Positions 956 through 19,937 are shown, counted from the first letter of the stretch. The stretch is DNA of 32,000 nucleotides from Gemmata obscuriglobus (GCF_008065095.1 NZ_CP042911.1:1440001-1472000); one strand, 5' to 3'. Numbers and translations are program-made. The notes: generated by a model from the letters alone, not told the origin.

Positions 956-959
956 CGCC

Positions 960-976: not shown

Positions 977-977
977 C

Positions 978-2126: not shown

Positions 2127-2188
2127 CCGCCCCTCGGACCGGCACGGCCGCACCCGCACACCGCCCCCCAACATAACGAGGCCCGAAC

Positions 2189-2902: not shown

Positions 2903-3139
2903 GGAAATGCGGAGTGCGGAATTCGGAATGCGGAATTGAAGACAACAAGAACAATATCGCCCAGGCACCTGTTCGATGTTCCGCATTGCGGCTGTTCCGC
3001 ACCGAATTGCGTCCCGCTTGCTCGTTGTCTTGTATTTTGTTTGTTTGTTTGTTGGTTGGTTGGTTCTATTCCGAATTCCGAATTCCGCGTTCCGAATTGG
3101 GAACGTTCCGCATTCCGAACTCCACATTCCGAATTACCT
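2903..3139. repeat. AT-richer inverted arrays of heptamer repeats (AATNCGG)n ... (CCGNATT)n forming a long imperfect hairpin
   Basis: The left arm is aatgcgg agtgcgg aattcgg aatgcgg aattg. The centre has a tgtttgtttgtttgttggttggttgg tract. The right arm is attccga attccga attccgc gttccga ... gcattcc gaactcc acattcc gaatt. ORFs 2435..3127(-), 2799..3002(-), 2875..3405(-) and the first 68 codons of 2936..4345 translate it (NSEFRIPNSEF / SECGIRNAE-type strings). Confidence 0.85.
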
Positions 3140-4345: not shown

Positions 4346-4385
4346 GGTGCGGGCACCGGGAAAACAGACACCACGGGAACCGATT

Positions 4386-4676
4386 ATGGCCGACGAGACC
4401 AAGAAGGCGGGCGCGCGGGCGGGGCACGCGAAGGGCGAACCGCCCGCCCCGAAGCCCGGCGCGCGGGTGTGCGATCCGACCGAGCGGGCGGGGGAGGGGC
4501 TCAAGCGGTTCAAGCTGCGTCTGGAAGGGCACCCCTTCGGGGCACGCACCCAGCGGTACGTGCTCGCCCCGGACCGCGACAGCGCCGTGGGCGAGTACCT
4601 GCGGGCGGAGGGCATCGACCCGGGCGACGTGGACGGCGCGGGCGTCCGGGTGGTGGCGACCGAGCTGCCGGACTGA
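4386..4676 (+). CDS. small phage head-module protein, unknown function
   Basis: In-frame ATG at 4386 of ORF 4347..4676 (MADETKKAGARAGH...). It follows the capsid gene on the same strand. Confidence 0.45.
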   Translation: MADETKKAGARAGHAKGEPPAPKPGARVCDPTERAGEGLKRFKLRLEGHPFGARTQRYVLAPDRDSAVGEYLRAEGIDPGDVDGAGVRVVATELPD

Positions 4677-4781
4677 GGTGGGGGTGGAACTGGGTGCTCG
4701 CGGGGCCGGGCGATCGGTCGCCCCGCGAACACACGCGCCGTCAGCGGTTTCTCACTCACACGAGTTGGTACGAGGTCGCCC

Positions 4782-5009
4782 ATGCCGACGCCCCTTCAGA
4801 ACTTGCAGGCCGCGTACCGCGACGTGTGCGCGAAGATCGCCGAGGTGCTGGCGAACCCGCTGCCGGACTACACGCTCCCCGGGGGCGTGCGGGTGGACCG
4901 CAAGACCTACTACGAGAGCCTGCTGGACCAGGAGAAGAGCCTGCGGGCCATCCCCGGGGCCGCCCCGGACACCAACCCCGTGTTCACCCAGACCAGCATC
5001 GTGAGGTAG
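4782..5009 (+). CDS. small phage connector-region protein, unknown function
   Basis: 75-aa ORF (MPTPLQNLQAAYRDVCAKIAEVLANP...). It sits in the head-tail connector position and its stop is 2 nt before the next start. Confidence 0.5.
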   Translation: MPTPLQNLQAAYRDVCAKIAEVLANPLPDYTLPGGVRVDRKTYYESLLDQEKSLRAIPGAAPDTNPVFTQTSIVR

Positions 5010-5011
5010 CC

Positions 5012-5359
5012 GTGGCCGACGAACTGGACGGCATCGACTTCGGCGCCGACTTTGAGGCGCTCGCGCAGGGAACCGCCCCGGTCGCGGTGGCGAGCGTCGA
5101 TGCCATCAGCGGGGTAGCGGCGGTCACTGTAACGGGGGTTACAGCCGCGAAGCTGATCCGCAAGGGCTCCACCGGGCCGGCCCGGTCGGGCGAGGTCCAC
5201 ACCACGCAGAACGAGTTCTGGCTCCGCACGGACCGGCTCGGGTTCGTGCTGAAGCCGGTGGACCGGATCACCGAAGGCGACGGCACGGTGTGGGTGGTTG
5301 CCGAGGTGAACGAGGTGGCGGGCCGCATCGTGCGGTGCCCGGTCACGAGGAAGAGGTGA
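5012..5359 (+). CDS. possible head-tail adaptor / head-closure protein
   Basis: GTG at 5012 in the frame of ORF 4469..5359 (MADELDGIDFGADFEAL...DRITEGDGTVWVVAEVNEVAGRIV). The size (115 aa) and position fit. The call rests on synteny and weak pattern resemblance. Confidence 0.35.
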   Translation: MADELDGIDFGADFEALAQGTAPVAVASVDAISGVAAVTVTGVTAAKLIRKGSTGPARSGEVHTTQNEFWLRTDRLGFVLKPVDRITEGDGTVWVVAEVNEVAGRIVRCPVTRKR

Positions 5360-5363
5360 GCCC

Positions 5364-5825
5364 GTGCCGAACCCGGTGAGCCCGAACCTGATCGCCGACG
5401 CCGTGGTGGCCGCCGTCCGGGCGCTGAACCTCGTGCCCGGCAACAAGGTGCAGAAGCTCAAGACCCCGAGCCTGCCGAGCGGGGTGGACCCGCCGTTCAT
5501 CGCCGTGTGCGTGGGCGAGGGCGGCGAAGAGGGGCAGACGACGATTCTCACGTACCGGCACAAGATCAACCGCTACCCGACCACCGTCGTCATCATCGGA
5601 GCGGGCGACGGGCGCGTGCTGGCGGACGGCGAGCGGGTGCGGGAGTGGCGCACGCTCATCGAGCAGGCCGTGGGCGACTCCCGGGGGTGTTTCGCGACCG
5701 TCCCCGGGTGGCTGTTCACGGCGACGATCGGGAAGGCCCCGTTCGACGGCAGCCTGATCCCGCGCGACCTCGATTACTCGGCACAAACGTTCAACGTGGC
5801 GGTCGTGGAACCCCGGAGCACCTGA
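5364..5825 (+). CDS. phage neck / tail-completion region protein
   Basis: 153-aa ORF with a GTG start preceded by AAGAGG. It is tightly coupled to its neighbours. The call is by synteny only. Confidence 0.4.
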   Translation: MPNPVSPNLIADAVVAAVRALNLVPGNKVQKLKTPSLPSGVDPPFIAVCVGEGGEEGQTTILTYRHKINRYPTTVVIIGAGDGRVLADGERVREWRTLIEQAVGDSRGCFATVPGWLFTATIGKAPFDGSLIPRDLDYSAQTFNVAVVEPRST

Positions 5826-5826
5826 G

Positions 5827-6207
5827 ATGCCGTTTACGCATTCGATTAGCCTGACCTGGGGCGCGGGTGGCGACCTGATCGGCACCGCCGTGAGCAAGAC
5901 CGGCGGGATCGAGCAGAACTTTTCGCTCGGGCTCGGGACCGTGACCCACCAGTTGATCGACCTCGAATGGGCCGCGGCCAAGCTGCTCGCGATCTTCATC
6001 GTGGTCGACGCGGACTGCACGCTGAAGCTGAACAGCAGCGGCAGCCCGACGGACACCATCGCCCTCAAGCCCGGCGCCCCGTTCTGCTGGGTGCGGGACA
6101 GCGGGGTGGCGTACCCGTTCGTCGGGACCGCGGGCGCCGTGACCGCGGGGTACGTGACCACCGCGGCCGCAACGGGGATCGAGATCCGCACCCTGCTGGA
6201 CCTGTGA
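5827..6207 (+). CDS. phage structural protein, unknown function
   Basis: 126-aa ORF whose start abuts the previous stop (TGAGATG). Confidence 0.45.
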   Translation: MPFTHSISLTWGAGGDLIGTAVSKTGGIEQNFSLGLGTVTHQLIDLEWAAAKLLAIFIVVDADCTLKLNSSGSPTDTIALKPGAPFCWVRDSGVAYPFVGTAGAVTAGYVTTAAATGIEIRTLLDL

Positions 6208-6209
6208 CC

Positions 6210-6713
6210 ATGCCGCTCGACGCCGTCAGCCTCAGTGCCGCCTGCCGCTTCTCGTTCGCCCGGCCGGTGGCCGGCTGGGCGGCCCTGGAGCAGGGGACCA
6301 ACCAGGTCGCGTTCGGCGGCGCCCTCGACCCGGCCGCGTGGGACCAGGCGTACGCCGGCGTCCTCACCGTCGCGGGGGGCGGCGCCGCAACGATCGATCT
6401 GACGAACTTCACCGACCTGACCGGTCAGACCGGTGTCGCGCTCGCCGCGGTGCTGGGGCTGATCGCGCGGGCCGAGCCGGCCGACCCGGACAACAGCGAC
6501 ATCGCCGTCCGCGTCGGGCCGGGGGACGCGAACGGGTTCCAGTGGCTCGCCGGGGCCGGGGCGGTCGCGCTCGGCGCGGGCGAGTCGGTCGTAAAGATGG
6601 GCGCCCCGGCCGGCGGCGGCGGGGCCGTCGGCGGTACGCACAGGACGCTGAAGGTCGCCAACGCCGGGGCCGACGCCGCGACGGTGACCATCGTCATCAT
6701 CGGCCACACGTGA
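6210..6713 (+). CDS. phage structural protein, unknown function
   Basis: In-frame ATG at 6210 within ORF 5967..6713 (MPLDAVSLSAACRFSF...TVTIVIIGHT), 2 nt after the previous stop. Confidence 0.45.
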   Translation: MPLDAVSLSAACRFSFARPVAGWAALEQGTNQVAFGGALDPAAWDQAYAGVLTVAGGGAATIDLTNFTDLTGQTGVALAAVLGLIARAEPADPDNSDIAVRVGPGDANGFQWLAGAGAVALGAGESVVKMGAPAGGGGAVGGTHRTLKVANAGADAATVTIVIIGHT

Positions 6714-6720
6714 GGGGCCC

Positions 6721-7098
6721 ATGCCGGACAACTTTATCAGCGGCAACAACAGTTACGTGAAGCTCGGCGCGGTCGCGTTCAGCTTCAACAAGTGGCGCCT
6801 GCCGCTCGACGGGGGCGTGAAGAAGTTCTTCGCCTTCGGGCACAACTTCCAGCGCACGCTGCCCGGCGGGGTCGCGGGCGCGCCGGTGTGCGAGGGGCCG
6901 TACAACGCGGGCAACATGCCGCTCGCGCTCGGCGCCCTGGTGGTGCTGCACCTGGGGTTCGCGGCGGGCGTGGAGCTCGCCGTCAACGCCCGGGTGTCCA
7001 CCATCGAGTACAGCAGCGAGATCAGCGCCGGGGGGGACCCGGCCCAGTGCTCCGTCGGGTTCGAGACCGACGGCGAGTTCACCATCAACTTCACCTGA
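6721..7098 (+). CDS. probable tail tube protein
   Basis: 125-aa ORF immediately upstream of the chaperone pair and the tape measure, which is the canonical siphovirus order. The sequence is beta-rich (NSYVKLGAVAFSFNKW...EFTINFT). Confidence 0.5.
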   Translation: MPDNFISGNNSYVKLGAVAFSFNKWRLPLDGGVKKFFAFGHNFQRTLPGGVAGAPVCEGPYNAGNMPLALGALVVLHLGFAAGVELAVNARVSTIEYSSEISAGGDPAQCSVGFETDGEFTINFT

Positions 7099-7109
7099 CC
7101 GGAGCCGGT

Positions 7110-7577
7110 ATGAGCGAACGCGCGGCAGCCTTCGGCGCGCTGAACCCGCCGAAGGTGATCGAACACCGGGGCAAGACGTACCGCGTCGCGCCCGTCATGA
7201 CCGAGGGCACGCTGCTCCGGGTGGAGGAGCGGCTGTACGAGCGCGCCCGGGCGGCGCTGAAGGGCGCCCGCGAGCTGTACGCGGACGCGGAGTACGCGGC
7301 CGAGGTGGCGAAGCTGCGGGCGCGGCACGAGGCCGGCGAGTTCGCGTTCTCCAGCGAGAAGACGCTGGCGCACCTGGGCACCACCGAGGGCGCCGCGCTG
7401 CTGCTCTCGTGCATGATGGACGCCGACCTGGGGGAGGTGCTCCAGCTCCTCACCGAGCGCGAGGCGGACGTGCGCGAGCTGCTCGACGAGGCGGTGGAGC
7501 TGAGCTTCCCAAAAGGATCGCCCCCGCGGCCGGCGCCGGAGCCGCGGGGCGACCGGCCGCGCCCGAAGCGCCGGTGA
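7110..7577 (+). CDS. tail assembly chaperone (gpG-like)
   Basis: ATG at 7110 in the frame of ORF 6792..7577. It lies between the tube and tape measure genes. It contains a slippery heptamer near its 3-prime end, and the -1 frame is open from 7409 to 7876. Confidence 0.65.
   Translation: MSERAAAFGALNPPKVIEHRGKTYRVAPVMTEGTLLRVEERLYERARAALKGARELYADAEYAAEVAKLRARHEAGEFAFSSEKTLAHLGTTEGAALLLSCMMDADLGEVLQLLTEREADVRELLDEAVELSFPKGSPPRPAPEPRGDRPRPKRR
7508..7514 (+). promoter_or_regulatory. candidate -1 programmed ribosomal frameshift site C CCA AAA
   Basis: The zero-frame codons are ttC CCA AAA, an X XXY YYZ heptamer. It lies 61 nt upstream of the gpG-like stop. The -1 frame continues ...PKRIAPAAGAGAAGRPAAPEAPVRTPG... 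through to 7876. Confidence 0.55.
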
Positions 7578-7876
7578 GGACGCCGGGGGCGCTGACCGCC
7601 CGGTACGCCGTCCTCGTGAACGTCCACCGGCTGCGGATGCACGAGGTGCTAGACCTGACCCCGCGCCAGGTCCACGAGTTGTACTTCCACCCGCGGGACC
7701 GGGACGGGGCGATCCAACTCCCGGAAGGGGCCGGGGACGAGCCGGCCGACCGGACGGCGCGACTGGCCCAACTGATCGCGCTCGGGCCGGCGCTGGGCGT
7801 GCCGCCGGAGCAGATCGAGGAACTGAAGCGCCGACTGGGGGCCGTAACCGATGGCGACACCGGACCAACAGCTTGA
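7574..7876 (+). CDS. gpT-like ORF in the -1 frame, probably expressed as a G-T fusion (7110..7514 joined to 7514..7876)
   Basis: The frame is -1 relative to 7110..7577. A GTG at 7574 overlaps the upstream stop (GTGA). The ORF ends inside the start of the tape measure gene. Confidence 0.5.
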   Translation: MRTPGALTARYAVLVNVHRLRMHEVLDLTPRQVHELYFHPRDRDGAIQLPEGAGDEPADRTARLAQLIALGPALGVPPEQIEELKRRLGAVTDGDTGPTA

Positions 7877-9095
7877 GGCCCTCACCCGGCTCACCGCGCA
7901 ACAGCTCGGCACCCTGAAGCTGATTCAGGGCGCCGTCGGTCAGATCAACGGGCAACTGAAGGGGCTGAAGGCGCCGGGACCCAAGCTCCCCAGCGCGGGG
8001 GGCGGGGGCGCTGGCGGTGGTAAGGGTAAAGGAACGAACCCGCTCGAGATGATCGGCGGGTTCGTCGGCAAGTTCGGCAAGGTGCTGGGCGTCGCCGGCG
8101 CGGTCGTCAGCGGCGTGGTCGCCGCGCTCACCGCGATCCCGATGGCGATCGTCGGCGTCGTTCAGGCGTCGGCGTCGTACGTCGGCGCCCTCAACCCGTC
8201 CGCCGTCGAGCAGTACGATCGGGCGCAGAACGACCTGCGCGCGACCATCGGGTACGGGCTGCAGCCGATCATCGCGTACGCGACCAAATCGCTCAAAGAC
8301 TGGGCCGGCATCCTGCTCCCGTCGATCCAGCAACTGCGCCCGGTGGTGGAACGCATCTCGGCGGCCGTGAGCGGGTACCTGATCGGCCCGGTCCGCCTGG
8401 TGGGGAAGCTCATCGACGGCTTCGCCAAGGGGCTCGAGGGCGTGCTGCCGGTGATCGAGAGCCTGGTCTCGACGGCCGCGGCGTTCGGCGAGGTCCAGCA
8501 GGCCATTACGGACGTGCTGGCGGCGTCCGGCCTCGGGCAGCTCTTGGGCGTGAAGAACGATCTGAACCGGGAGCTGCTCAAGTTCACCGCCGAGGCGTTC
8601 CGGAAGCTCGTCACCGCCCTCGTAATCGCGACCGCGCGGCTGCTACAACTGGCGGGTGCCACCGAGTCGCTGAAGCGGTTCAAGGACTCGCTGCAGGGCG
8701 CAGTTGACGCCCGAAAGGCGCCCAAAAGCGGCCTCACCGCGGCGCCGTCCGACGCCGGCACGGGTTCGATCGAGGACGTGCTGAAGCGGCTGAACGAGCG
8801 GGCGTTTGTCGCGACCTCGGGCGCCACCACCAAACAGACGGACACCGAGTACCTGGAAGACCTTGTGAAGGTGGTGGGGCAGATCCAGGCGAACCCGTTG
8901 AACTGGAAGCAGATGATAACCGACGCGGTCCGCGACGCCCTGCCGCCCGGGCCGGCGGCGCTGCTGGATTTCGTCGGAATGGGTGACGCCAGCAGCGGCG
9001 GGAGCCGACGCGGGGGCGGGGCGGCCGGCGCGGCCGGGTTGCTGACCCGGTTCGCGGCCGGCGGACTGCGCGGCGCGATGTTTGGGGGGAGCTGA
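7851..9095 (+). CDS. tail tape measure protein (short, 414 aa)
   Basis: It lies after the G/GT pair. It has a Gly-rich tract, a hydrophobic segment (VLGVAGAVVSGVVAALTAIPMAIVGVV) and long helical Ala/Leu-rich stretches typical of tape measure proteins. Confidence 0.7.
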   Translation: MATPDQQLEALTRLTAQQLGTLKLIQGAVGQINGQLKGLKAPGPKLPSAGGGGAGGGKGKGTNPLEMIGGFVGKFGKVLGVAGAVVSGVVAALTAIPMAIVGVVQASASYVGALNPSAVEQYDRAQNDLRATIGYGLQPIIAYATKSLKDWAGILLPSIQQLRPVVERISAAVSGYLIGPVRLVGKLIDGFAKGLEGVLPVIESLVSTAAAFGEVQQAITDVLAASGLGQLLGVKNDLNRELLKFTAEAFRKLVTALVIATARLLQLAGATESLKRFKDSLQGAVDARKAPKSGLTAAPSDAGTGSIEDVLKRLNERAFVATSGATTKQTDTEYLEDLVKVVGQIQANPLNWKQMITDAVRDALPPGPAALLDFVGMGDASSGGSRRGGGAAGAAGLLTRFAAGGLRGAMFGGS

Positions 9096-9096
9096 G

Positions 9097-10242
9097 ATGG
9101 CACTGATGATGGAGCTGACCGGCGACAGCGAGCGTATGTCCACCGCAATTTCGCAGGAAGATGGGTCCGCCGAGGCGACGTACCGCATCATCGGTGACAC
9201 GCAGGACCAGCCCCCGGACGCGGACACGCTGCGCACCGTGGTTGACGGCTTCCTGGGCGGCGTGCTGAACCTGAAGGCGCGTGTCGTCGGCCAACAGTAC
9301 GCGGAGGCGGGCAAGATCAACCGCGTGCTCCCTGTCGTTCACCCGTTCCGGCCGGAACTGTCCGCCTCCGCGATCACGATTTCCGGCATCGGCAAGAGCC
9401 AGGCGGCCGACTCGAAGCCCACCGGGCTGTCGGCGGTGACGGTGCAGTACCCCCACTGGACCGCGTACGACCTGAAGGTCCGCTTCCAGAAGCGGCCGTA
9501 CCCGCTGGTGAAGAACGAGAACATCGCGGTCAAGAGCGACCTGACGTACTACCCACCCGACGGCAGCGCGGGCAAAACGGTCACCTACGCGGAGGAGTGG
9601 CGGCGGTTCACGACGCTCACGCGCACGCCGACCGGCGAAACGGTGTCCGCGAGCCTGGGTTCGATGATGTTCAAAACGCAGACCGGAACCGTTGCACCAC
9701 ACAACCGCAACTACACCGGGCAGGTCTACGCGTACCTTCCGAACGAGATGATTGAGCTGAACTGGTTCATGGTTCCGTTCCGGTACTTCCAGCAGTACGG
9801 CGATTCAAAGCCCTATTTGACGCGGTTCCAGAACACCATCAACCAGTACCCGTTCCTGGGGTTCGGTGCCGGCTCCTTGCTGTTCCTGGGGGCGACGCCG
9901 ACGAGCTACATCCCGGTGACGCCCGATGCGAAGCTGTACACGCAGGGGCTGGAAACCGGTGCCGACGCCGGGCTGCTGTGCAACGTGAAGCTGCGGTTCC
10001 TGTACACCTCGCGGGAGGGCACAGACGTGCCCGACTCGTCGAACCCGCTGTTGACGGCGAACCGGAACCGCGTTGCGGCGGGGCACAACCTGCTCATCAA
10101 CTACAGCGATCGACGGTACTACTACACCGTCACGGAGCCCACACCCGGCTCGGATGCGGGCCGGCACCCGAGCTTCGATTCGTTCCCGTTCCAGCTACTG
10201 TTCACCGACCCTCTGTACCAACAACCGGGCGGGGCGATTTGA
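9097..10242 (+). CDS. tail-tip protein, candidate receptor-binding protein
   Basis: ATG at 9097, 1 nt after the tape measure stop, 381 aa. It is the only tail gene downstream of the tape measure. Its last roughly 170 codons are duplicated at 10890-11400. Confidence 0.45.
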   Translation: MALMMELTGDSERMSTAISQEDGSAEATYRIIGDTQDQPPDADTLRTVVDGFLGGVLNLKARVVGQQYAEAGKINRVLPVVHPFRPELSASAITISGIGKSQAADSKPTGLSAVTVQYPHWTAYDLKVRFQKRPYPLVKNENIAVKSDLTYYPPDGSAGKTVTYAEEWRRFTTLTRTPTGETVSASLGSMMFKTQTGTVAPHNRNYTGQVYAYLPNEMIELNWFMVPFRYFQQYGDSKPYLTRFQNTINQYPFLGFGAGSLLFLGATPTSYIPVTPDAKLYTQGLETGADAGLLCNVKLRFLYTSREGTDVPDSSNPLLTANRNRVAAGHNLLINYSDRRYYYTVTEPTPGSDAGRHPSFDSFPFQLLFTDPLYQQPGGAI

Positions 10243-10243
10243 T

Positions 10244-10687
10244 CTAATTCGGTCGCCGTTGCACACCACGGACGATCCCATCTTTCAACTGAATAAACAT
10301 CCCAGTAGGGGAACGATCAATCGACGACTCTGTGGGCTTCAGCCATTTCGGCTCCCAATAGATCCAGAGGGTGTGAATTCCGTCGGTATCCAGACCTGAT
10401 GAGTTCGGCTTTCCCAACAGCGCCTTCACCTCATCGTCCGTCAGCCCGATCAGCTTCTTTGTGGCCGTGCCCTCGCTCCACGGCAACCCCAAGTCGGGCT
10501 TATCGTCTTTCTTGGGCTTTTCGGACTTTTCGGGCTTATCGCCCGGTGCGACGTGCGGCGCGGGCGCGGATCGTGGGTCGTGCTCCGGTTGTTGCTGTGC
10601 AACGGCGGGAGGTGGTGTCGGCGCCGACTTCGGTTTACAACCGGAGGTGAGAAGGGCGAGCGAGAGGACGAAGAGGCACGTGCGCAT
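10244..10687 (-). CDS. lipoprotein, paralog A (convergent with the tail-tip gene)
   Basis: The N-terminus MRTCLFVLSLALLTSGCKPK is a signal peptide plus lipobox-like Cys. A Pro/Lys-rich linker follows, then a roughly 70-aa C-terminal domain. Its stop is 1 nt from the tail-tip gene stop. Confidence 0.7.
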   Translation of the reverse strand: MRTCLFVLSLALLTSGCKPKSAPTPPPAVAQQQPEHDPRSAPAPHVAPGDKPEKSEKPKKDDKPDLGLPWSEGTATKKLIGLTDDEVKALLGKPNSSGLDTDGIHTLWIYWEPKWLKPTESSIDRSPTGMFIQLKDGIVRGVQRRPN

Positions 10688-10749
10688 GGGCAGACCCGAG
10701 CGGGCGGTGTGAACCGCGGGCGTCCGGCCCGCGCGCCGCCCGCGCTCAG

Positions 10750-10778
10750 AGGTTATCCGATGGGTGGGCAGGTGTGAA
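10750..10778 (-). promoter_or_regulatory. candidate promoter TTCACA-N17-TAACCT for lipoprotein A
   Basis: The minus strand reads ccacTTCACAcctgcccacccatcggaTAACCTctgagcg, about 60-90 nt upstream of the ATG at 10687. The same architecture recurs at 11905-11933, 13264-13292 and 13549-13577. Confidence 0.4.
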
Positions 10779-10782
10779 GTGG

Positions 10783-10882
10783 TCGAATGGTCACTTTGGT
10801 GCGCAGGCGGTGGCGACGGGTGTCACGACGGCTGTCTGAAGAGGCACACCAGCGCGGCGAGCGCCGGCCCCGCCGGCCCGAT
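10783..10882 (-). pseudogene. relic of the 3-prime end and downstream flank of the DUF1304 gene at the duplication junction
   Basis: It aligns with 13582-13672, including the exact 28-mer gaagaggcacaccagcgcggcgagcgcc (10838-10865 = 13628-13655). The minus strand would encode ...ALAALVCLFRQPS*, compared with ...ALAALVCLFRQPA* in the intact gene. Confidence 0.7.
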
Positions 10883-10889
10883 CGTACCT

Positions 10890-11400
10890 GTACCTTCCGA
10901 ACGGGATGATTGAGCTGAACTGGTTCATGGTTCCGTTCCGGTACTTCCAGCAGTACGGCGATTCAAAGCCCTATTTGACGCGGTTCCAGAACACCATCAA
11001 CCAGTACCCGTTCCTGGGGTTCGGTGCCGGCTCCTTGCTGTTCCTGGGGGCGACGCCGACGAGCTACATCCCGGTGACGCCCGATGCGAAGCTGTACACG
11101 CAGGGGCTGGAAACCGGTGCCGACGCCGGGCTGCTGTGCAACGTGAAGCTGCGGTTCCTGTACACCTCGCGGGAGGGCACAGACGTGCCCGACTCGTCGA
11201 ACCCGCTGTTGACGGCGAACCGGAACCGCGTTGCGGCGGGGCACAACCTGCTCATCAACTACAGCGATCGGCGGTACTACTACACCGCCACGGAGCCCAC
11301 ACTCGGCTCGGATGCGGGCCGGCACCCGAGCTTCGATTCGTTCCCGTTCCAACTGCTGTTTACCGACCCACTGTATCAGCAGCCGGGCGGGGTAATCTAA
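10890..11400 (+). pseudogene. 5-prime-truncated duplicate of the tail-tip gene 3-prime region (ORF 10906..11400); silent cassette or remnant
   Basis: The 164-aa ORF matches the C-terminus of 9097..10242 except near the end (YYYTATEPTLGS...QQPGGVI vs YYYTVTEPTPGS...QQPGGAI). It lacks the N-terminal ~216 codons and has no evident RBS. Confidence 0.7.
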
Positions 11401-11843
11401 TACGGGGGGAGGCGGTAAATTTGCCTCGCCTTCCCACCCCGCATGCAAAGGACAAACCCTGTGGGTCGCAAGTCAGTTGAGCCTTCCGGCGGGCTCAGCC
11501 ACTTGTTTTGAGTGTATCGCCACTCGGTGAACTGAAGATCCGAAGAAGGGCTCACGTGATCAGGTTTGCCAATCAGCGCCTTCACTTCGTCGTCCGTCAG
11601 CCCGATCAGCTTCTTGTTCGCGGTGCCTTCGGACCAAGGTAGGCCCAAGTCGGGCTTATCGTCTTTCTTGGGCTTTTCGGACTTTTCGGGCTTATCGCCC
11701 GGTGCGACGTGCGGCGCGGGCGCGGATCGTGGGTCGTGCTCCGGTTGTTGCTGTGCAACGGCGGGAGGTGGTGTCGGCGCCGACTTCGGTTTACAACCGG
11801 AGGTGAGAAGGGCGAGCGAGAGGACGAAGAGGCACGTGCGCAT
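11397..11843 (-). CDS. lipoprotein, paralog B
   Basis: The N-terminal ~75 aa match paralog A almost exactly. The C-terminal ~55 aa differ (DHVSPSSDLQFTEWRYTQNKWLSPPEGSTDLRPTGFVLCMRGGKARQIYRLPPY vs NSSGLDTDGIHTLWIYWEPKWLKPTESSIDRSPTGMFIQLKDGIVRGVQRRPN). Its stop overlaps the stop of the truncated tail copy. Confidence 0.7.
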   Translation of the reverse strand: MRTCLFVLSLALLTSGCKPKSAPTPPPAVAQQQPEHDPRSAPAPHVAPGDKPEKSEKPKKDDKPDLGLPWSEGTANKKLIGLTDDEVKALIGKPDHVSPSSDLQFTEWRYTQNKWLSPPEGSTDLRPTGFVLCMRGGKARQIYRLPPY

Positions 11844-11904
11844 GGGCAGACCCGAGCGGGCGGTGTGAACCGCGGGCTCCGGCCCGCGCGCCGCCCGCGC
11901 TCAG

Positions 11905-11933
11905 AGGTTACCCGACGGGTGGGCAGGTGTGAA
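11905..11933 (-). promoter_or_regulatory. candidate promoter TTCACA-N17-TAACCT for lipoprotein B
   Basis: The minus strand reads TTCACAcctgcccacccgtcgggTAACCT, the duplicate of 10750-10778. Confidence 0.4.
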
Positions 11934-12042
11934 GTGGACGGGCGCCTACGTGATCGAGCCGATAACCTTCGCTCGATGCCGTTTGCGTGAAGGCGAGTAC
12001 GATAGGCGGCGGATTCCCTCACCCTGCACGAGAGGAAAAGCC

Positions 12043-13203
12043 GTGCGCCTCCCTTCCCGGAACCGCTTCCTCGTCGCCACTGTGGCGGCCGTCGCTCTCG
12101 CGGCCGGCTGTGGCAAAAAAGTCCCGGACCCGGCCCGGACCGAGAATGCGGGTGCCGCCGCCACTCCGGCAGCCGCCGGCACTCCGGCCCCCGCCGGCAC
12201 GCCGGCCCCCGCGGAACCCAGCGCGGCGCTGTACGGCCCCGAACTCGGCGAGGCGTTTCTGCCGGCCGACACCTCGGCCGCCCCGCTGCGGCCGCGGAAA
12301 ACCGACACCGTCTACAAGCTGTCCAACCCCCGCATCGGCACCCCGAAGCCGACCCGGTTCGGCCCGCGGCCCGGCAGCGGGCAGGCCCTCATGCTGGACT
12401 GGGAGAAGGTGGCCGACGGTCCCAACGGCGGCATGACGGTCGTCATCCGCTTGGCCAACGGCAAGGACATGCGCGTTCCGATCCAGTCGCCCGGCGGGGA
12501 CCGGGCCGGGACCATCGAGATGGAAGTTGCCTACCGCGGGCCGTGGACCGGGGAGTTGCCGAAGGACGCCGAGTTGTACGTCATCCGGGAGGAGCACGGG
12601 TACGGGGTCGCGTTCCGCAAGACGTTCAAGGTGTCGAACTCGGTGGTCCTCGGGACGACCCGGTTCCCGATCACGGCCGCCCGGGCGTGGACGGCGGAGG
12701 AGACGGCCAAGCTCCGGACCCCGCCGCCCGCGCCCCCGAAGGAGCTGTGGGCCAGCCCCGGCACCGGCGAGGAGACGGAGATGGCCGGCATCCCGGAGCC
12801 GCACAAGTTCAAACGGTGGACGGTGGAGGGCGGCAAGCCGGTCGTCGGGTTCGACTACTCGGTCGGCGGGTGGGACGGCGAGAGCTGCTTGGGCGGCCTG
12901 TGGCCGCTGTTCGACCGGGACTGGCCGGATCACGGCCAGCAGCGGGTGATGGCCCGGCCGGGGTACGCGGTCGGCGGGCTGACCGTGAAGTCGAACAAGT
13001 TCGTGGACGGCATTCGGGTGACGTTCATGAGGGTCCGGCCGGACGGCCGGCTCGACCCGGCGGACAAGTACGAGAGCCCCTGGTGCGGCCCACACGGGAG
13101 CGGCAAAAAGGAAACCAAGCTCGGCGGCGACGGCCGGGCGGTGATCGGGCTGACCACCGACAAGGCGGCGGTCCTCCACGCGGTCGGGCTGGTGGTGCAA
13201 TAG
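12043..13203 (+). CDS. lipoprotein of unknown function (C-terminal beta-rich, possibly lectin-like domain)
   Basis: GTG at 12043 preceded by AGAGGAAAAG, in the frame of ORF 11929..13203. The N-terminus VRLPSRNRFLVATVAAVALAAGCGKK is a signal peptide plus lipobox, followed by an Ala/Pro-rich linker. Repeated G-x-x-V-G-G / VDGIRVTF strings hint at a jacalin-like domain, but this is weak. Confidence 0.6.
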   Translation: MRLPSRNRFLVATVAAVALAAGCGKKVPDPARTENAGAAATPAAAGTPAPAGTPAPAEPSAALYGPELGEAFLPADTSAAPLRPRKTDTVYKLSNPRIGTPKPTRFGPRPGSGQALMLDWEKVADGPNGGMTVVIRLANGKDMRVPIQSPGGDRAGTIEMEVAYRGPWTGELPKDAELYVIREEHGYGVAFRKTFKVSNSVVLGTTRFPITAARAWTAEETAKLRTPPPAPPKELWASPGTGEETEMAGIPEPHKFKRWTVEGGKPVVGFDYSVGGWDGESCLGGLWPLFDRDWPDHGQQRVMARPGYAVGGLTVKSNKFVDGIRVTFMRVRPDGRLDPADKYESPWCGPHGSGKKETKLGGDGRAVIGLTTDKAAVLHAVGLVVQ

Positions 13204-13263
13204 CGGGCCGGGAGTGCGAGCCGGGCACCGGCGGGGCCGGCCCGCGCGGCGCCCGCGGCGCTG

Positions 13264-13292
13264 AGGGTAATCCAGGGCCGGGCGGGCGCGAA
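13264..13292 (-). promoter_or_regulatory. orphan copy of promoter-like motif TTCGCG-N17-TACCCT
   Basis: The minus strand reads TTCGCGcccgcccggccctggatTACCCT. It points into the 3-prime end of the (+) gene 12043..13203. Confidence 0.3.
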
Positions 13293-13306
13293 GGGGGATC
13301 GGGGGC

Positions 13307-13492
13307 TCAGAACGCGACCCGGGCCAGCGCACTTACCACGGCCCCCGTGGCGCTGACCGCGGCCACGACGGCGACCCAAAGCGGTACTCTCCGCTCATCG
13401 GAGCCCGAGTCGGCCCGGCCGGCCGGGCCGAGCGCCGCGAACGCGACCAGCAGCAGCGCTGCCGCCAGGGCGAGGTATTCCCAGGGATGCAT
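13307..13492 (-). CDS. small two-TM membrane protein (61 aa), hypothetical
   Basis: The sequence is MHPWEYLALAAALLLVAFAALGP...VPLWVAVVAAVSATGAVVSALARVAF. It is preceded by a promoter-like motif at 13549-13577. Coding status is uncertain. Confidence 0.4.
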   Translation of the reverse strand: MHPWEYLALAAALLLVAFAALGPAGRADSGSDERRVPLWVAVVAAVSATGAVVSALARVAF

Positions 13493-13548
13493 GGGGCGAC
13501 CGGGCTGAGTCTGAGGGGCCGCTGCGGCGAGTCGCGAGCGGCTGTTTC

Positions 13549-13577
13549 AGGGTAACCGGGCGCAAGGCGGGCGCGAA
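13549..13577 (-). promoter_or_regulatory. candidate promoter TTCGCG-N17-TACCCT upstream of 13307..13492
   Basis: The minus strand reads TTCGCGcccgccttgcgcccggtTACCCT, 57-85 nt upstream of the ATG at 13492. Confidence 0.35.
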
Positions 13578-13612
13578 GTGGATAATCCGCCACGTTGGTG
13601 CGCCGGTCGGCA

Positions 13613-14011
13613 TCACGCCGGCTGTCGGAAGAGGCACACCAGCGCGGCGAGCGCCAGCCCCGTCTGCCCGACCAGGAACGCGACCGCCCCGCGCGGCTCC
13701 GGCTGAACCGACCAGTACCCCACAACGCCCGCGACGGCGATGAACCCGAGGAACAGGCACAGCACCAGCCGGCCGTCGGGCCGGCCCGCCCGCAACCGCA
13801 ACAGGCCCAGTACGAGCCCGCGCGCCAGGAACGCGTTGCAGAGCCCCTGGTTGATCGCGACCTTCGCCCCCTCGGTCTGGTCGTTCTTGAAGTTGAGCGT
13901 TTCACGGAACCGGTCGGCCGCCGGCGTGTTCCAGATCACCGCCTCGAGAACGAAGAAGAACAGGTGCGCCGCCGCCAGCAGCGCGGTGAGGACGTTCGGG
14001 GCGATCCGCAT
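13613..14011 (-). CDS. DUF1304-family membrane protein
   Basis: This is the last 132 codons of track ORF 13613..15748(-), starting from the ATG at 14011. The sequence MRIAPNVLTALLAAAHLFFFVLEAVIWNTP...AINQGLCNAFLARGLVLGLL matches the remembered DUF1304 pattern (HxxxxxxE...NQGLYNxFLAxGL). Confidence 0.75.
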   Translation of the reverse strand: MRIAPNVLTALLAAAHLFFFVLEAVIWNTPAADRFRETLNFKNDQTEGAKVAINQGLCNAFLARGLVLGLLRLRAGRPDGRLVLCLFLGFIAVAGVVGYWSVQPEPRGAVAFLVGQTGLALAALVCLFRQPA

Positions 14012-14122: not shown

Positions 14123-15739
14123 ATGGCCGAACCGCTGCTGATCCGCGCCGTCATCACCGCCAAGGACGACTCGTCTGGCCGTTGGCGCTACGGCTGGAAG
14201 GAGCAGGGCACCGACCTGGGAACCGGCGGCGACCTGGACCCGCTCGGCTACCGCCGCGGCACGACGAGCGTCAACCCCGCGGTCGAGCTGAACGACCGCG
14301 AGGTGGCGCCCGGCACCGTGGTCTGGTTGCGCGAGCGGGGGTTCGTCGCCGGCCAGATGTGGTACGAGTTCGCGGTCACCGCCGGCGCCACTTCCTCCAC
14401 GACAACGACCACGACCACCACCGCCGGCCCGTGCGCCGGCGCGTGCCAGTGGACCTACTCCGCCGCCTCGAAGGCCTGGACCCGCACCACCTCCACCTGC
14501 GCCGCCGGCTGTCACTGCCTCGCCCCGACGTGGTGCCCCGCCGCCGACGCCTGCGCCACCACCGCGTGCGGGCGCCTCGCCGCGGACGCGCCGGCGCCGA
14601 GCTGCACCGGCGCCACGACCACCCCGGGCGCGTGCGGGACCACGACCCCGGGCGCGTGCGCCGCCGGGTGCGTGTGGTACTGCCACCCGGTGCGCGGCTG
14701 GGTGCAGCGGTCGAACGGGTGCTCGGGCGCCTGCCCGTGCCCGCGCCCGGCCGGCCCCTGCACCGTGTCCGAGTGCGCGACCGAGGCGACGACCCCGTGC
14801 CAGGTGCCGCCCTACTACTGCACCGGCTCGTGCCGGTGGATGTGGGTGAGCGCGGAACTCGGCTGGGAGTGGGTCACCGGCAGTTGCTCGTCCTACGGGG
14901 TGTCGGGCTGCGCGTGCGACCGCCCGGCCGCGCCCGGCTCGCGGTGCGGCCAGGAGGTGAGCACCCCGTGCTACTCCCCACAGGGCAACAACCCGTGCCA
15001 GACGGTGACCACCGCCGGCCCGCCGACCGCGTGCGGCGGGGACTGCCTCTGGGGGAGCACGGACGGCGCGAGCTGGAACCAGATCGTGCGGCCGTGCGTG
15101 GGCGCCGGGTGCGTGTGCGACCGCCCGCTGTACGCCCCGGCCGGCACCTGCTCGCAGGCCGCCGGCGCGTGCGTGCAGGGCGTGCCGACCACGACCACCG
15201 CCGCGCCGCCCACCACCACCACCGCCGGCCCGCTCCAGTGGTGGTGCTACGACTGCACGGAGAACCCGAGCTACGGGTTCTGGGGGTGCGCCGCGACGCC
15301 CACGATGCCCGCCGGGTGCGTGCAGAAGTCCGGCCCGTACCTCGGCGACAGCGCGGCGTGCGTGGCCGCGTGCCAGCCGCCGACCACCACCACCGCCGGC
15401 CCCACGACCACCCCGGCCCCCGCGACGACCAGCACAACGACCACCACCGCCGGCCCGCCGCCGGTCACCACCACCGCGCCGACCACGACGCCCGCGCCGA
15501 CCACCACCACGGCCGGCCCGGTGGTGGACTACTTCTGCTGCCAGTGCCCGCTGGGGGTCAACACGTGCTCCTTCGATCCGATTAACCAGTGCGCGGGCTG
15601 CACGGTCACGGGGCCGATGTCCCTGGCGTTGTGCAACGGCACGTGCGTGGGCGGGATCGGGGGCACGACCACCACACCGCCGCCGGCGCCCGTGACCACC
15701 GGGACCGGCACCGGTGGCCCGACGGCCAGTCCGGACTGA
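14123..15739 (+). CDS. Cys-rich modular protein with Thr-rich TTTAGP linkers and an N-terminal phage-like domain; no signal peptide
   Basis: ATG at 14123 in ORF 13595..15739; the upstream part overlaps DUF1304 antisense. There are four modules of the form C-x3-C-x-W-x(7,8)-W-x6-C-x(3,7)-C-x-C-x(1,2)-P, plus two more Cys-rich modules. They are separated by T(n)AGP linkers. Confidence 0.7.
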   Translation: MAEPLLIRAVITAKDDSSGRWRYGWKEQGTDLGTGGDLDPLGYRRGTTSVNPAVELNDREVAPGTVVWLRERGFVAGQMWYEFAVTAGATSSTTTTTTTTAGPCAGACQWTYSAASKAWTRTTSTCAAGCHCLAPTWCPAADACATTACGRLAADAPAPSCTGATTTPGACGTTTPGACAAGCVWYCHPVRGWVQRSNGCSGACPCPRPAGPCTVSECATEATTPCQVPPYYCTGSCRWMWVSAELGWEWVTGSCSSYGVSGCACDRPAAPGSRCGQEVSTPCYSPQGNNPCQTVTTAGPPTACGGDCLWGSTDGASWNQIVRPCVGAGCVCDRPLYAPAGTCSQAAGACVQGVPTTTTAAPPTTTTAGPLQWWCYDCTENPSYGFWGCAATPTMPAGCVQKSGPYLGDSAACVAACQPPTTTTAGPTTTPAPATTSTTTTTAGPPPVTTTAPTTTPAPTTTTAGPVVDYFCCQCPLGVNTCSFDPINQCAGCTVTGPMSLALCNGTCVGGIGGTTTTPPPAPVTTGTGTGGPTASPD

Positions 15740-19857: not shown

Positions 19858-19937
19858 TCGCGGCGGCCTAATCTGAGCATGGTTTGAAACAGGCAAGTGT
19901 GATGATTTAAAAGTCTTATTTAAATACACTTAATGGC

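What the first reader, a model, noticed from the sequence alone, without database searches (positions are those of the whole stretch)
9732..11937. Mosaic tandem duplication of the tail-tip 3-prime cassette with a convergent lipoprotein whose C-terminal domain is swapped
- The last ~170 codons of the only post-tape-measure tail gene and the abutting convergent lipoprotein gene are duplicated in tandem, with an offset of 1158 bp.
- Both flanks of the unit match between copies: about 360 bp of the tail gene, and about 230 bp covering the lipoprotein signal peptide, linker and upstream region.
- The roughly 380-bp centre has diverged. There are a few substitutions in the extreme C-terminus of the tail protein, and the lipoprotein C-terminal ~55 aa are almost completely replaced.
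- Divergence rises gradually from both sides, which looks like recombination or gene conversion around a variable core rather than uniform decay.
- Copy 2 of the tail gene lacks its 5-prime two thirds. It could therefore act as a silent cassette: homologous exchange would retarget the tail tip and switch the lipoprotein at the same time.
- A phage receptor-binding gene next to an oppositely oriented lipoprotein gene recalls T5 pb5 (oad)/Llp, and the Cor-type lipoproteins encoded beside tail fibre genes. In those systems the lipoprotein blocks the cognate receptor.
- A co-varying tail-tip/lipoprotein specificity pair kept in two alleles has not, to my knowledge, been described in Planctomycetes.
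Basis: partly seen in the sequence, partly recalled or inferred. Interest (0 to 1): 0.8.

Follow-up and report, generated by a model that had tools for sequence, protein, structure and literature searches.

The report
Prophage scar keeping two lipoprotein alleles
A Gemmata obscuriglobus prophage carries a real, mosaic partial duplication at the end of its tail genes that leaves a dead tail-gene fragment and two intact, very different versions of a BamE-like lipoprotein, probably a phage-exclusion or envelope factor; this is a recombination scar, not a tail-switching cassette.

Summary
Window 9732-10785 is repeated at 10890-11940. The flanks are near-identical (99.1% and 98.7%) and the 300-bp core is diverged (65%). 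Protein records from three complete G. obscuriglobus assemblies list all four genes, so it is not an assembly artefact.

- The 381-aa gene is not the only gene after the tape measure, and it does not look like a receptor binder. Its C-terminal half is the more conserved half.
- The likely fibre is a gene with a conserved N-domain ("fibN") and variable C-termini, here at 14123-15739.
- The truncated copy differs from the expressed gene by 3 residues inside its ORF. It is a by-product of an illegitimate join (relic of a DUF1304 gene | tail codon 212).
- The lipoprotein C-domains are diverged homologues with a BamE-like fold, not an unrelated swap.

Synonymous divergence is 0 in the flanks, at least 0.9 in the core, and about 8-23% in the neutral relic. 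So the core alleles predate the join, and the flanks were homogenised later.

In relatives the lipoprotein always sits at the end of the tail module. In two sister prophages, the fibre C-domain and lipoprotein C-domain are swapped as one block. A superinfection-exclusion role like Llp/Cor is plausible but untested, and the protein is not a member of that family.

The parts
7851..9095 (+). Tape-measure-like gene (414 aa); context
   Evidence: Weak PHROG tape-measure hit (E 2.4e-4). It is syntenic and 43-52% identical to the gene preceding the 380-aa gene in L001-L003.
9097..10242 (+). 381-aa conserved tail-module gene (GobsT_12260); function unknown, baseplate or distal-tail protein by position
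   Evidence: Annotated start. Family of about 15 clusters. AF2 model pLDDT 75, pTM 0.75. BFVD matches have TM 0.74-0.82 to uncharacterised phage proteins. No solved-structure match. The C-half is more conserved than the N-half.
9732..10785 (.). Repeat copy 1
10189..10488 (.). Diverged core of copy 1: last 17 tail codons plus lipoprotein codons 67-147
   Evidence: 65% identical to 11347-11644. dS is 1.9 in the tail end and 0.9 to saturated in the lipoprotein.
10244..10687 (-). Lipoprotein 1 (147 aa, GobsT_12270): signal peptide and lipobox (LLTSGC), about 50-aa Pro/Lys-rich tether, BamE-like C-domain
10786..10889 (.). Unique spacer and junction. 10823-10881 (minus strand) is a relic of the stop plus last 19 codons of the DUF1304 gene. 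10882-10889 is junction filler with a GTACCT doubling.
   Evidence: 59 bp, 91.5% identical to 13613-13671 (E 1.7e-17). Gapped homology of 10766-10881 to 13565-13671. Junction read base by base.
10890..11940 (.). Repeat copy 2
10906..11400 (+). Truncated tail-gene copy (164-aa ORF, GobsT_12280), equal to residues 218-381 of the full gene
   Evidence: 97% identical to the C-terminus of the full protein. The breakpoint at residue 212 lies in the low-confidence segment of the model. No other of 29 loci has such a fragment.
11397..11843 (-). Lipoprotein 2 (148 aa, GobsT_12290): N-terminal 66 aa identical to lipoprotein 1, C-domain a divergent allele
11941..13564 (.). 1.6-kb segment present only after copy 2, bounded by a 16-bp direct repeat. 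It holds a third lipoprotein gene 12043-13203(+) and a 61-aa membrane ORF 13307-13492(-).
   Evidence: No family hits.
13613..14011 (-). DUF1304 membrane-protein gene, parent of the relic in the spacer
   Evidence: PF06993, E 9.5e-21
14123..15739 (+). fibN gene (538 aa): conserved 85-aa N-domain plus Thr/Cys-rich variable C-part; likely tail fibre or receptor-binding protein, displaced from its usual place right after the 381-aa gene

Best explanation
The window is the tail end of a temperate-siphophage-like prophage of Gemmata obscuriglobus.

What is shown:
- The duplication arose by an illegitimate join. It fused a point 19 codons from the end of a downstream DUF1304 gene to codon 212 of the 381-aa tail gene.
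- This repeated the block [tail 3' half - convergent lipoprotein gene - its upstream region].
- The two cores are old alleles that diverged under purifying selection. Each core is the last 17 tail codons plus the folded C-domain of the lipoprotein.
- The flanks are almost identical, although the neutral relic at the junction has decayed by 8-23%.

What is inferred about origin:
- The two cores come from different phage lineages. Either the join was an out-of-register exchange between two related phage genomes, or a foreign allele was imported later.
- Gene conversion between the repeats has since kept the flanks alike. It stops where the heterologous core begins, which is exactly the tether/domain boundary of the lipoprotein.
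- The truncated tail copy is a by-product, not a cassette.

The functional outcome is a prophage with two intact lipoproteins. They share signal peptide, lipid anchor, tether and upstream region, but carry different BamE-like C-domains.

What is inferred about function, by analogy:
- The lipoprotein is expressed independently of the late operon and is tethered to a membrane in the periplasm.
- Its C-domain binds an envelope protein and blocks entry or adsorption of related phages (superinfection exclusion). Two alleles would widen that protection.
- Homologous recombination between the 457-bp or 297-bp repeats could delete one unit and leave either allele.

The confidence of 0.6 is a blend: about 0.85 for the anatomy and mosaic origin, and about 0.4 for the exclusion function.
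For: Structure and origin:
- Repeat and segment identities.
- Relic of the DUF1304 3' end in the spacer: 59 bp, 91.5% identical, E 1.7e-17. All 5 mismatches are non-synonymous, which fits neutral decay after truncation.
- Junction with filler bases and no microhomology.
- NG86 counts: flanks dS = 0. Last 17 tail codons have 9 synonymous and 1 non-synonymous change (dS 1.9, dN 0.03). Lipoprotein codons 67-92 have dS 0.9, dN 0.10. Codons 93-146 have saturated dS, dN 0.76.
- The two C-domains are 34% identical in their variable part. That is no closer than either is to alleles of other phages (23-43%).
- All four genes are present in three complete assemblies.
- None of 29 related loci has a second tail fragment.

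Lipoprotein:
- Lipobox cysteine is nearly invariant in the family.
- AF2 C-domain pLDDT 88-97, preceded by a disordered tether.
- Top Foldseek hits are all BamE, OsmE or BLIP (probability 0.9-1.0).
- 18 of 40 relatives hit Pfam BamE (best E 2.7e-12).
- The family profile hits OmlA, BamE and BLIP chains (E 2.6e-4 to 1e-3).

Linkage:
- The lipoprotein lies at the end of the tail module in the window (twice), L001/L009, L002, L003, L005, L008, L010, L011 and L021, and next to the fibre in L004.
- Integrases are nearby in L005 and L008.
- L010 and L011 have a backbone 85-95% identical in nucleotides, but the fibre C-domain plus lipoprotein C-domain block is unrelated. Homology resumes in the lipoprotein tether.

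Precedent:
- Lipoproteins encoded next to the receptor-binding gene block the phage receptor from the periplasmic side: T5 Llp-FhuA (PMC9586334) and Rtp45-LptDE (PMC12685063).
- The receptor-binding-protein/Llp pair is exchanged as a module between T5 and BF23 (PMC4728585).
Against: - Function is untested. There is no homology to Llp, Cor or Rtp45, no PADLOC hit and no expression data.
- The protein is about twice the size of the known exclusion lipoproteins. Lipoprotein 1 has no cysteine besides the lipid-anchor one, so it cannot form the disulphide seen in Llp and Cor.
- In this window the lipoproteins are not next to the fibre gene.
- Co-variation of fibre and lipoprotein alleles across loci is mixed: 4 pairs fit and 2 do not.
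- BamE-like domains serve many roles.
- dS estimates rest on short stretches (17 and 26 codons).
- All assemblies are of one strain.
- Inter-phage exchange and in-place duplication followed by allele import cannot be told apart here.
Confidence: 0.6

Rival explanations
1. First reader's model. Copy 2 is a silent cassette, and homologous exchange would retarget the tail tip and switch the lipoprotein together, as a maintained specificity-switching system.
For: The repeats (457 bp and 297 bp at about 99%) could support homologous exchange. A tail-plus-lipoprotein block that is swapped together exists in relatives.
Against: - Inside its ORF the fragment differs from the expressed gene by 3 residues only.
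- The C-terminus is the most conserved part of the family.
- The variable tail partner in relatives is the fibN fibre, not this gene.
- Recombination between direct repeats deletes rather than switches.
- No recombinase, reverse transcriptase or inverted repeats were found.
- The fragment's left end is an accidental fusion to a DUF1304 relic.
- The duplication is unique among 29 loci.
Confidence: 0.05
2. An ordinary tandem duplication made in place, followed by neutral decay. The centre merely decayed faster or was under relaxed constraint.
For: The arrangement is head-to-tail, and one copy of the tail gene is truncated.
Against: - Divergence has three levels: flanks dS 0, neutral relic 8-23%, core dS at least 0.9.
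- The dead fragment's last 17 codons show 9 synonymous and 1 non-synonymous change. That means purifying selection, which a pseudogene decaying in place would not show.
- Both lipoproteins are intact.
- The C-domains are as far apart as alleles from different phages.
Confidence: 0.04
3. Same origin, different function. The lipoproteins are lysogenic-conversion or envelope factors (for example modulators of the BAM machinery, inhibitors of a periplasmic enzyme as BLIP is, or stress proteins like OsmE) and not phage-exclusion proteins. Keeping two alleles is incidental.
For: The fold class includes BamE, OsmE and BLIP. One relative weakly matches a PHROG annotated as a BLIP moron. There is no similarity to known exclusion proteins.
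Against: - The family is restricted to one phage lineage and is always at the tail or fibre end.
- The C-domain evolves very fast and is exchanged independently of the backbone.
- It is swapped in one block with the fibre C-domain in sister prophages of one genome. This is expected for a specificity partner and not for a housekeeping-type factor.
Confidence: 0.3
4. The 164-aa ORF is a functional stand-alone protein, equal to the complete C-terminal domain of the 381-aa protein. It could be an alternative subunit or a decoy, so the duplication is kept for its sake.
For: - The breakpoint (residue 212) falls in the low-confidence linker of the model, residues 191-220. The ORF therefore encodes the whole well-folded C-half and starts with ATG.
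- Its 3' end evolved under purifying selection.
- It is annotated as a gene in all assemblies.
Against: - The purifying signal is equally explained by a past life inside a full-length gene.
- Changes since homogenisation are 2 non-synonymous to 1 synonymous, which is neutral-like.
- There is no convincing ribosome-binding site or promoter.
- No related locus has a stand-alone C-half.
Confidence: 0.08
5. Assembly artefact.
For: None was found. All assemblies are of one strain.
Against: All four genes are present in three independent complete assemblies, and the full gene and the fragment are also in older records. The copies differ in a 300-bp core and have unique junctions.
Confidence: 0.02

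Closest known systems
T5 Llp / BF23 Llp with pb5 (Oad)/Hrs: the host-recognition plus receptor-blocking lipoprotein module of T5-like phages
   Same: - A phage lipoprotein encoded beside the tail-end or receptor-binding genes.
- The lipoprotein and the receptor binder are exchanged as one module between close relatives. Compare T5 vs BF23 (PMC4728585) with L010 vs L011 here.
[quoted passage not shown]
   Different: - No sequence or fold similarity.
- The mature protein is about 130 aa, with a long tether and a BamE-like domain, against about 6 kDa with a disulphide for Llp.
- The host phage here is temperate.
- In this window the neighbour is a conserved 381-aa gene and not the fibre.
- Function is untested.
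Cor-family and Rtp45-type exclusion lipoproteins of T1/phi80/Rtp-like siphophages
   Same: Small lipoproteins found directly downstream of the tail-tip (gpJ) locus. They block outer-membrane receptors (FhuA, LptD) from the periplasmic side (PMC9586334, PMC12685063).
   Different: Not homologous. The orientation here is convergent, with stop codons abutting. The size and fold differ.
BamE / SmpA-OmlA, OsmE and BLIP domain superfamily
   Same: - Lipoprotein with an alpha-alpha-beta-beta-beta type domain.
- The best structural and profile matches are to this superfamily.
- It is a protein-binding module of the cell envelope.
   Different: - The window proteins themselves do not reach Pfam's BamE threshold.
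- The family is phage-linked, has hypervariable C-terminal strands, and carries a long Pro/Lys-rich tether.
- There is no evidence that it is a BAM subunit.
Mosaic recombination scars and morons at the ends of prophage late operons (illegitimate recombination model of phage mosaicism)
   Same: - A non-homologous join with filler bases.
- Partial gene duplication.
- Sharp changes of divergence at module borders.
- Independently oriented accessory genes at the end of the tail operon.
   Different: The scar retains two functional alleles of the same accessory gene, and its flanks appear to have been homogenised afterwards.

Membership tests
Llp/Cor-type superinfection-exclusion lipoproteins | Signal peptide with lipobox cysteine | tested here: met
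   The sequence MRTCLFVLSLALLTSGC is identical in both copies. The cysteine is nearly invariant across 40 relatives.
Llp/Cor-type superinfection-exclusion lipoproteins | Sequence homology to Llp, Cor or Rtp45 | tested here: not met
   No tblastn match at E<=1 in 50,697 phage records. Family profiles do not match Llp or Rtp45 chains in the PDB sequence set. Foldseek's top 50 contain no Llp.
Llp/Cor-type superinfection-exclusion lipoproteins | Very small mature protein (about 6 kDa) with an intramolecular disulphide (PMC9586334) | tested here: not met
   The mature protein is about 130 aa. Lipoprotein 1 has no cysteine after the lipid-anchor cysteine.
Llp/Cor-type superinfection-exclusion lipoproteins | Encoded adjacent to the receptor-binding or tail-tip gene | tested here: inconclusive
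   It is adjacent to the fibre-like fibN gene in L002, L004, L005, L008, L010, L011 and L021. In the window, L001 and L003 it abuts the conserved 381-aa gene, and the fibre lies 3.9 kb away.
Llp/Cor-type superinfection-exclusion lipoproteins | Blocks the phage receptor and excludes superinfection | not testable with these tools
   Needs expression and adsorption or plating assays.
BamE / SmpA-OmlA-like domain superfamily | Two-helix plus beta-sheet BamE fold | tested here: met
   AF2 C-domain pLDDT 88-97. Top PDB matches are BamE 5wam_B (probability 0.98), 9mgg_E (0.96) and OsmE 4dm5_A (probability 1.0, rmsd 2.6 A over 65 aa). E-values are only 0.03-0.2.
BamE / SmpA-OmlA-like domain superfamily | Match to Pfam PF04355 above its gathering score | tested here: not met
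   There is no hit for either window protein. The L003 homologue scores E 0.016, below the cut-off. Support is transitive only: 18 of 40 relatives match, and the family profile hits BamE/OmlA chains at E 2.6e-4 to 1e-3.
BamE / SmpA-OmlA-like domain superfamily | Subunit of the BAM complex | not testable with these tools
   No interaction data. The phage-restricted distribution argues against a housekeeping role.
Phage receptor-binding protein or tail fibre (applied to the 381-aa protein) | Conserved N-terminal anchor with a variable, mosaic C-terminal part | tested here: not met
   Mean pairwise identity is 0.47 in the N-half, 0.54 in the C-half and 0.69 in the last 20 residues. The fibN proteins do show this pattern.
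Siphophage distal tail protein or baseplate hub (applied to the 381-aa protein) | Fold similarity to Dit/Tal, with position directly after the tape measure | tested here: inconclusive
   Position is met. Foldseek gives only faint baseplate or Dit rows (probability <0.1). The strong matches are to uncharacterised phage proteins.
Simple tandem duplication | Two adjacent units homologous over their whole length, with uniform divergence | tested here: not met
   The last ~100 bp of the units are not homologous. Divergence falls into three classes.
Programmed variation systems (DGR, shufflon or invertase cassettes) | Reverse transcriptase or recombinase nearby; inverted repeats or adenine-specific changes | tested here: not met
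   The repeats are direct. Differences are not adenine-specific. No such domains were found in the window genes scanned.

The most novel reading that the evidence does not exclude
Gemmata phages use a new family of receptor- or envelope-blocking exclusion lipoproteins built on the BamE fold. The lipoprotein's specificity domain is encoded 3'-end to 3'-end with the fibre's specificity domain. The two therefore form one exchangeable cassette with conserved arms: the fibN domain on one side and the lipoprotein tether on the other. The G. obscuriglobus prophage has captured two alleles. This would give double exclusion, and recombination between the repeats could resolve the locus to either allele.
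Probability: 0.25. Interest if true: 0.65.

Novelty: new variant of a known kind. Interest (0 to 1): 0.42.

Why it matters
If the lipoproteins are exclusion factors, this would be the first phage-host surface interaction module proposed for Planctomycetes. No phage-host system is well characterised in that phylum, and its cell envelope is debated.

It would also show that the logic of pairing a receptor binder with a blocking lipoprotein, known from coliphages, has arisen again on a different fold (BamE-like). Here the convergent gene layout physically couples the two specificity domains.

The duplication itself is a clear natural example of three things: illegitimate recombination creating a partial duplication, later homogenisation of the flanks, and retention of two old alleles. 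The two alleles share everything except the folded domain, so they are ready-made reagents for a specificity test.

If the lipoproteins turn out to be ordinary envelope morons, the finding is a routine prophage scar.

Tried and rejected
- Genome-contig scan with the tail-family profile found nothing. Look-ups of the G. obscuriglobus proteins P0016 and P0017 were 'not on record'. The source genome seems to be withheld, so the duplication could not be compared at DNA level between assemblies. Protein records were used instead.
- Pfam, PHROGs, NCBIfam and PADLOC gave nothing decisive for the 381-aa protein, the lipoproteins, the 386-aa lipoprotein or the fibre.
- Foldseek against the PDB gave no match for the 381-aa model. 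A PDB sequence-profile search was also empty.
- tblastn of the 381-aa protein, lipoprotein 1 and fibN against 50,697 annotated phages gave no match.
- No tRNA or Rfam hits were found that could mark an attachment site.
- The promoter and terminator scan was uninformative.
- An HTH gene upstream of the lipoprotein was seen only in L003, so the idea of co-expression with the lysogeny genes was not generalised.
- Co-variation of fibre and lipoprotein alleles is mixed across loci.
- Spanin was considered. One relative has a weak Rz-like hit confined to its signal peptide, and there is no partner gene and no C-terminal membrane segment. Rejected.
- DGR and invertase mechanisms were rejected.
- Literature searches for Gemmata prophages, BamE-like phage lipoproteins and these locus tags found nothing relevant.

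Full report
**1. Observation**

The window is high-GC DNA. Its proteins match Gemmata obscuriglobus records exactly.

The repeat finder and a MAFFT alignment show two direct copies, 9732-10785 and 10890-11940. Identity by segment:

| Segment | Result |
|---|---|
| Tail-gene part (457 bp) | 99.1%, with 366 bp perfect |
| Last 17 tail codons plus stop | 79.6% |
| Lipoprotein 3' part | 61.9%, with gaps |
| Lipoprotein codons 1-66 | 199/199 identical |
| 98 bp upstream of the lipoprotein start | 95.9% |

The genes involved, after third-position GC was used to choose coding frames:
- the full gene 9097-10242 (381 aa, GobsT_12260);
- lipoprotein 1, 10244-10687 on the minus strand (GobsT_12270);
- a 164-aa ORF 10906-11400 (GobsT_12280), which equals the C-terminal 43% of the full gene at 97% amino-acid identity;
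- lipoprotein 2, 11397-11843 on the minus strand (GobsT_12290).

All four are annotated in three complete assemblies (accession series AWM, QEG, VTS). The full gene and the fragment also have older WP_ records. The copies also differ internally and have unique junctions. An assembly artefact is therefore very unlikely. That these are independent sequencing projects of the same type strain is my own knowledge, not a tool result.

**2. Context**

Genes 816-10242 form a phage head-tail module. It has a Phage_capsid_4 capsid gene and a weak tape-measure hit for the 414-aa gene at 7851-9095. It is syntenic with prophages in Gemmata sp. SH-PL17 (L001), G. palustris (L002) and several metagenome or IMG/VR contigs. 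Some of those carry portal genes, and L005 and L008 carry integrases.

The 381-aa protein belongs to a small family (15 clusters in the word-indexed search). Its AF2 model (pLDDT 75, pTM 0.75) matches no solved structure. It does match uncharacterised proteins of uncultured tailed phages strongly (E 1.6e-25, TM 0.74-0.82). Its role (distal tail or baseplate) is inferred from position only.

It does not have the signature of a receptor-binding protein. The C-half is more conserved than the N-half (0.54 vs 0.47), and the last 20 residues are the most conserved (0.69).

**3. It is not the only gene after the tape measure**

An 85-residue N-terminal domain, which I call fibN, heads the protein at window 14123-15739. 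An HMM scan of 29 related loci finds a fibN gene immediately after the 350-400-aa gene in about 22 of them. These include relatives only 28-32% identical.

The parts following fibN range from about 140 to more than 500 residues and are mostly unrelated between loci. That is the classical layout of a tail fibre or receptor binder.

In the window this gene is separated from the 381-aa gene by 3.9 kb. That interval holds:
- the two lipoprotein genes and the tail fragment;
- a third lipoprotein gene (12043-13203);
- a 61-aa membrane ORF;
- a DUF1304 gene, 13613-14011 on the minus strand (PF06993, E 9.5e-21).

**4. How the duplication was made**

The bases between the copies are not random. Positions 10823-10881 are 91.5% identical (E 1.7e-17) to 13613-13671, which is the stop codon and last 19 codons of the DUF1304 gene. 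Gapped homology extends over 10766-10881 against 13565-13671.

So the ancestral order was: tail gene, then a convergent lipoprotein, its upstream region, about 40 bp, the DUF1304 gene (minus strand), then the fibre.

The novel junction fuses DUF1304 codon -19 to tail codon 212. It carries a few filler bases and a GTACCT doubling, and it has no microhomology. This is an illegitimate join.

After copy 2, an extra 1.6 kb (11941-13564) lies between two copies of a 16-bp motif. It was either inserted there or deleted from copy 1.

**5. Ages of the parts**

Nei-Gojobori counts:

| Segment | Result |
|---|---|
| Flanks | dS = 0 |
| Last 17 tail codons | 9 synonymous, 1 non-synonymous (dS about 1.9, dN 0.03) |
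| Lipoprotein codons 67-92 | dS 0.9, dN 0.10 |
| Lipoprotein codons 93-146 | dS saturated, dN 0.76 (37% amino-acid identity) |

By my own binomial estimate, with 25% of sites synonymous, at least 9 of 10 changes being synonymous has a probability of about 3e-5.

The 3' end of the now-dead fragment therefore diverged while under purifying selection, that is, as part of a working gene.

The neutral relic is 8.5% diverged over its 59 bp. All five mismatches are non-synonymous, which fits decay after truncation. Over the full 116 bp the divergence is 23%.

This gives three age classes: core, much older than the relic, which is much older than the flanks. Two conclusions follow:
(i) The cores did not diverge in place after the join. 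They are alleles from different lineages.
(ii) The flanks were made alike after the join, by gene conversion or by a later exchange.

Consistent with (i), the two C-domains are only 34% identical in their variable part. That is no closer than either is to alleles from other phages (23-43%).

The right-hand border of the core coincides with the end of the disordered tether and the start of the folded domain.

The apparent 'gradual rise' of divergence is largely a step in synonymous divergence. It is masked by protein-level constraint near the borders.

**6. The lipoprotein**

Both copies share:
- the signal peptide and lipobox (MRTCLFVLSLALLTSGC);
- a Pro/Lys-rich tether of about 50 residues;
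- 98 bp of upstream sequence.

The C-domain folds confidently (pLDDT 88-97) as two helices plus a sheet.

The best structural matches are all BamE, OsmE or BLIP. Probabilities are 0.9-1.0, but E-values are only 0.03-0.2 for this small domain.

An exhaustive profile search finds 138 relatives at E<=1e-3. Of 40 tested, 18 match Pfam BamE (best E 2.7e-12). The family profile hits OmlA, BamE and BLIP chains (E 2.6e-4 to 1e-3). The window proteins themselves stay below Pfam's threshold.

There is no similarity to Llp, Cor or Rtp45 and no PADLOC hit.

**7. Linkage and modularity in relatives**

The close family is tiny, with six clusters among 5.8 billion. In every case with context it sits at the end of the tail module:
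- directly after the 380-aa gene, with stop codons abutting or overlapping, in the window (twice), L001/L009 and L003;
- after the fibre, convergent, in L002, L005, L008, L010, L011 and L021;
- upstream of the fibre on the same strand in L004.

Two allele types exist. Type A ('PWSEGTAN..GLTDDEV') occurs in the window (twice), L004, L005, L008 and L010. Type B occurs in L001, L002, L003, L011 and L021. The types do not follow the backbone: the window's closest tail protein is in L003 (57%), which carries type B.

The most telling case is L010 against L011, two prophages of one IMG genome. Their tail proteins are 90% identical, and their DNA is 85-95% identical up to the end of the fibN domain. 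Then one contiguous block is unrelated. It consists of the fibre C-domain plus the lipoprotein C-domain, whose 3' ends abut. Homology resumes in the lipoprotein tether and signal peptide.

So a tail-plus-lipoprotein cassette that is swapped together is real in this lineage, but its tail half is the fibre.

Across all loci, co-variation is mixed: four pairs fit and two do not.

No other locus has a second tail fragment.

**8. Mechanism**

Shown:
- the anatomy;
- the illegitimate junction;
- the three divergence classes;
- two intact BamE-like lipoprotein alleles;
- the family's exclusive link to phage tail ends;
- block exchange with the fibre domain in sister prophages.

Inferred:
- Origin was an out-of-register exchange between two related phage genomes, or an in-place duplication followed by import of a foreign allele. 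These cannot be separated here.
- The flanks were later homogenised by gene conversion.
- The lipoproteins act in the periplasm on an envelope protein to exclude related phages. This is by analogy with T5 Llp-FhuA (PMC9586334), Rtp45-LptDE (PMC12685063) and the T5/BF23 receptor-binder/Llp module (PMC4728585).

I put the structural and evolutionary part at about 0.85 and the exclusion function at about 0.4.

The 'silent cassette' reading is rejected for three reasons:
- Inside its ORF the fragment differs by three residues, in the most conserved part of the protein.
- The repeats are direct, so recombination between them deletes one unit rather than switching.
- The fragment's left end is an accident of the join.

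**9. Novelty and score**

A receptor-binder-linked blocking lipoprotein, and its modular exchange, are known ideas.

What is new:
- a non-homologous, BamE-fold family in phages of Planctomycetes;
- a convergent layout that couples the two specificity domains;
- one prophage that retains two old alleles through a recombination scar.

I class this as a new variant of a known kind, with moderate interest (0.42). The function is untested, and the duplication itself is a by-product.

Noticed in passing
window 14123-15739 (+): A 538-aa protein with a conserved 85-aa 'fibN' N-domain and a Thr/Cys-rich C-part. fibN genes directly follow the 380-aa gene in about 22 of 29 related loci and have unrelated C-termini. 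It is the likely fibre or receptor binder, and here it is displaced by 3.9 kb.
   Followed up: yes
window 11941-13564: A 1.6-kb segment present only after copy 2. It is bounded by a 16-bp direct repeat: GGCAGGTGTGAAGTGG at 11921-11936 and a degenerate copy at 13565-13580. It carries a third lipoprotein gene (12043-13203, 386 aa, LAAGC lipobox, no family hit) and a 61-aa membrane ORF (13307-13492, minus strand).
   Followed up: partly
window 10823-10881 and 13613-14011: The spacer between the copies holds a decayed relic of the last 19 codons plus stop of the DUF1304 gene. All five mismatches are non-synonymous.
   Followed up: yes
L010 7400-8117 vs L011 7380-8128: Two prophages of one IMG genome (2671180531) are 85-95% identical in backbone. 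They carry unrelated fibre C-domains and lipoprotein C-domains as one contiguous swapped block. The lipoprotein tethers are conserved.
   Followed up: yes
L001 5059-6228 (-) and 18472-19737 (-): In Gemmata sp. SH-PL17 the fibN gene is inverted and lies upstream of the tail genes. A second, different capsid gene (PF05065) lies 7 kb downstream, which suggests a neighbouring second phage-like cluster.
   Followed up: no
L003 11560-11802 (-): A Cro/CI-type HTH gene lies immediately upstream of the lipoprotein on the same strand. This hints at expression with the lysogeny genes. It was not seen in the other loci tested.
   Followed up: partly
window 7100-7577 and 7580-7876 (+): Two overlapping reading frames just before the 414-aa tape-measure-like gene resemble a tail-assembly-chaperone pair made by a frameshift. 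Relatives have separate 156-aa and 82-99-aa gene calls there.
   Followed up: no
window 19500-22400 and 24813-26210: GC content dips to 52-57% around two Acyl_transf_3 genes (20044-20994 and 21279-22370, minus strand). A collagen-repeat/BclA_C/DUF4214 protein lies at 24813-26210 (minus strand). These may be further foreign or surface-modifying cargo. No integrase was seen in the window.
   Followed up: no
window 10240-10246 and 11397-11400; L001 11143-11148; L003 11134-11137: The convergent 380-aa gene and lipoprotein gene abut or overlap at their stop codons (1-nt gap, 3-nt overlap, 4-nt gap, 4-nt overlap). This holds across relatives only about 50% identical, and it leaves no room for a terminator.
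   Followed up: partly
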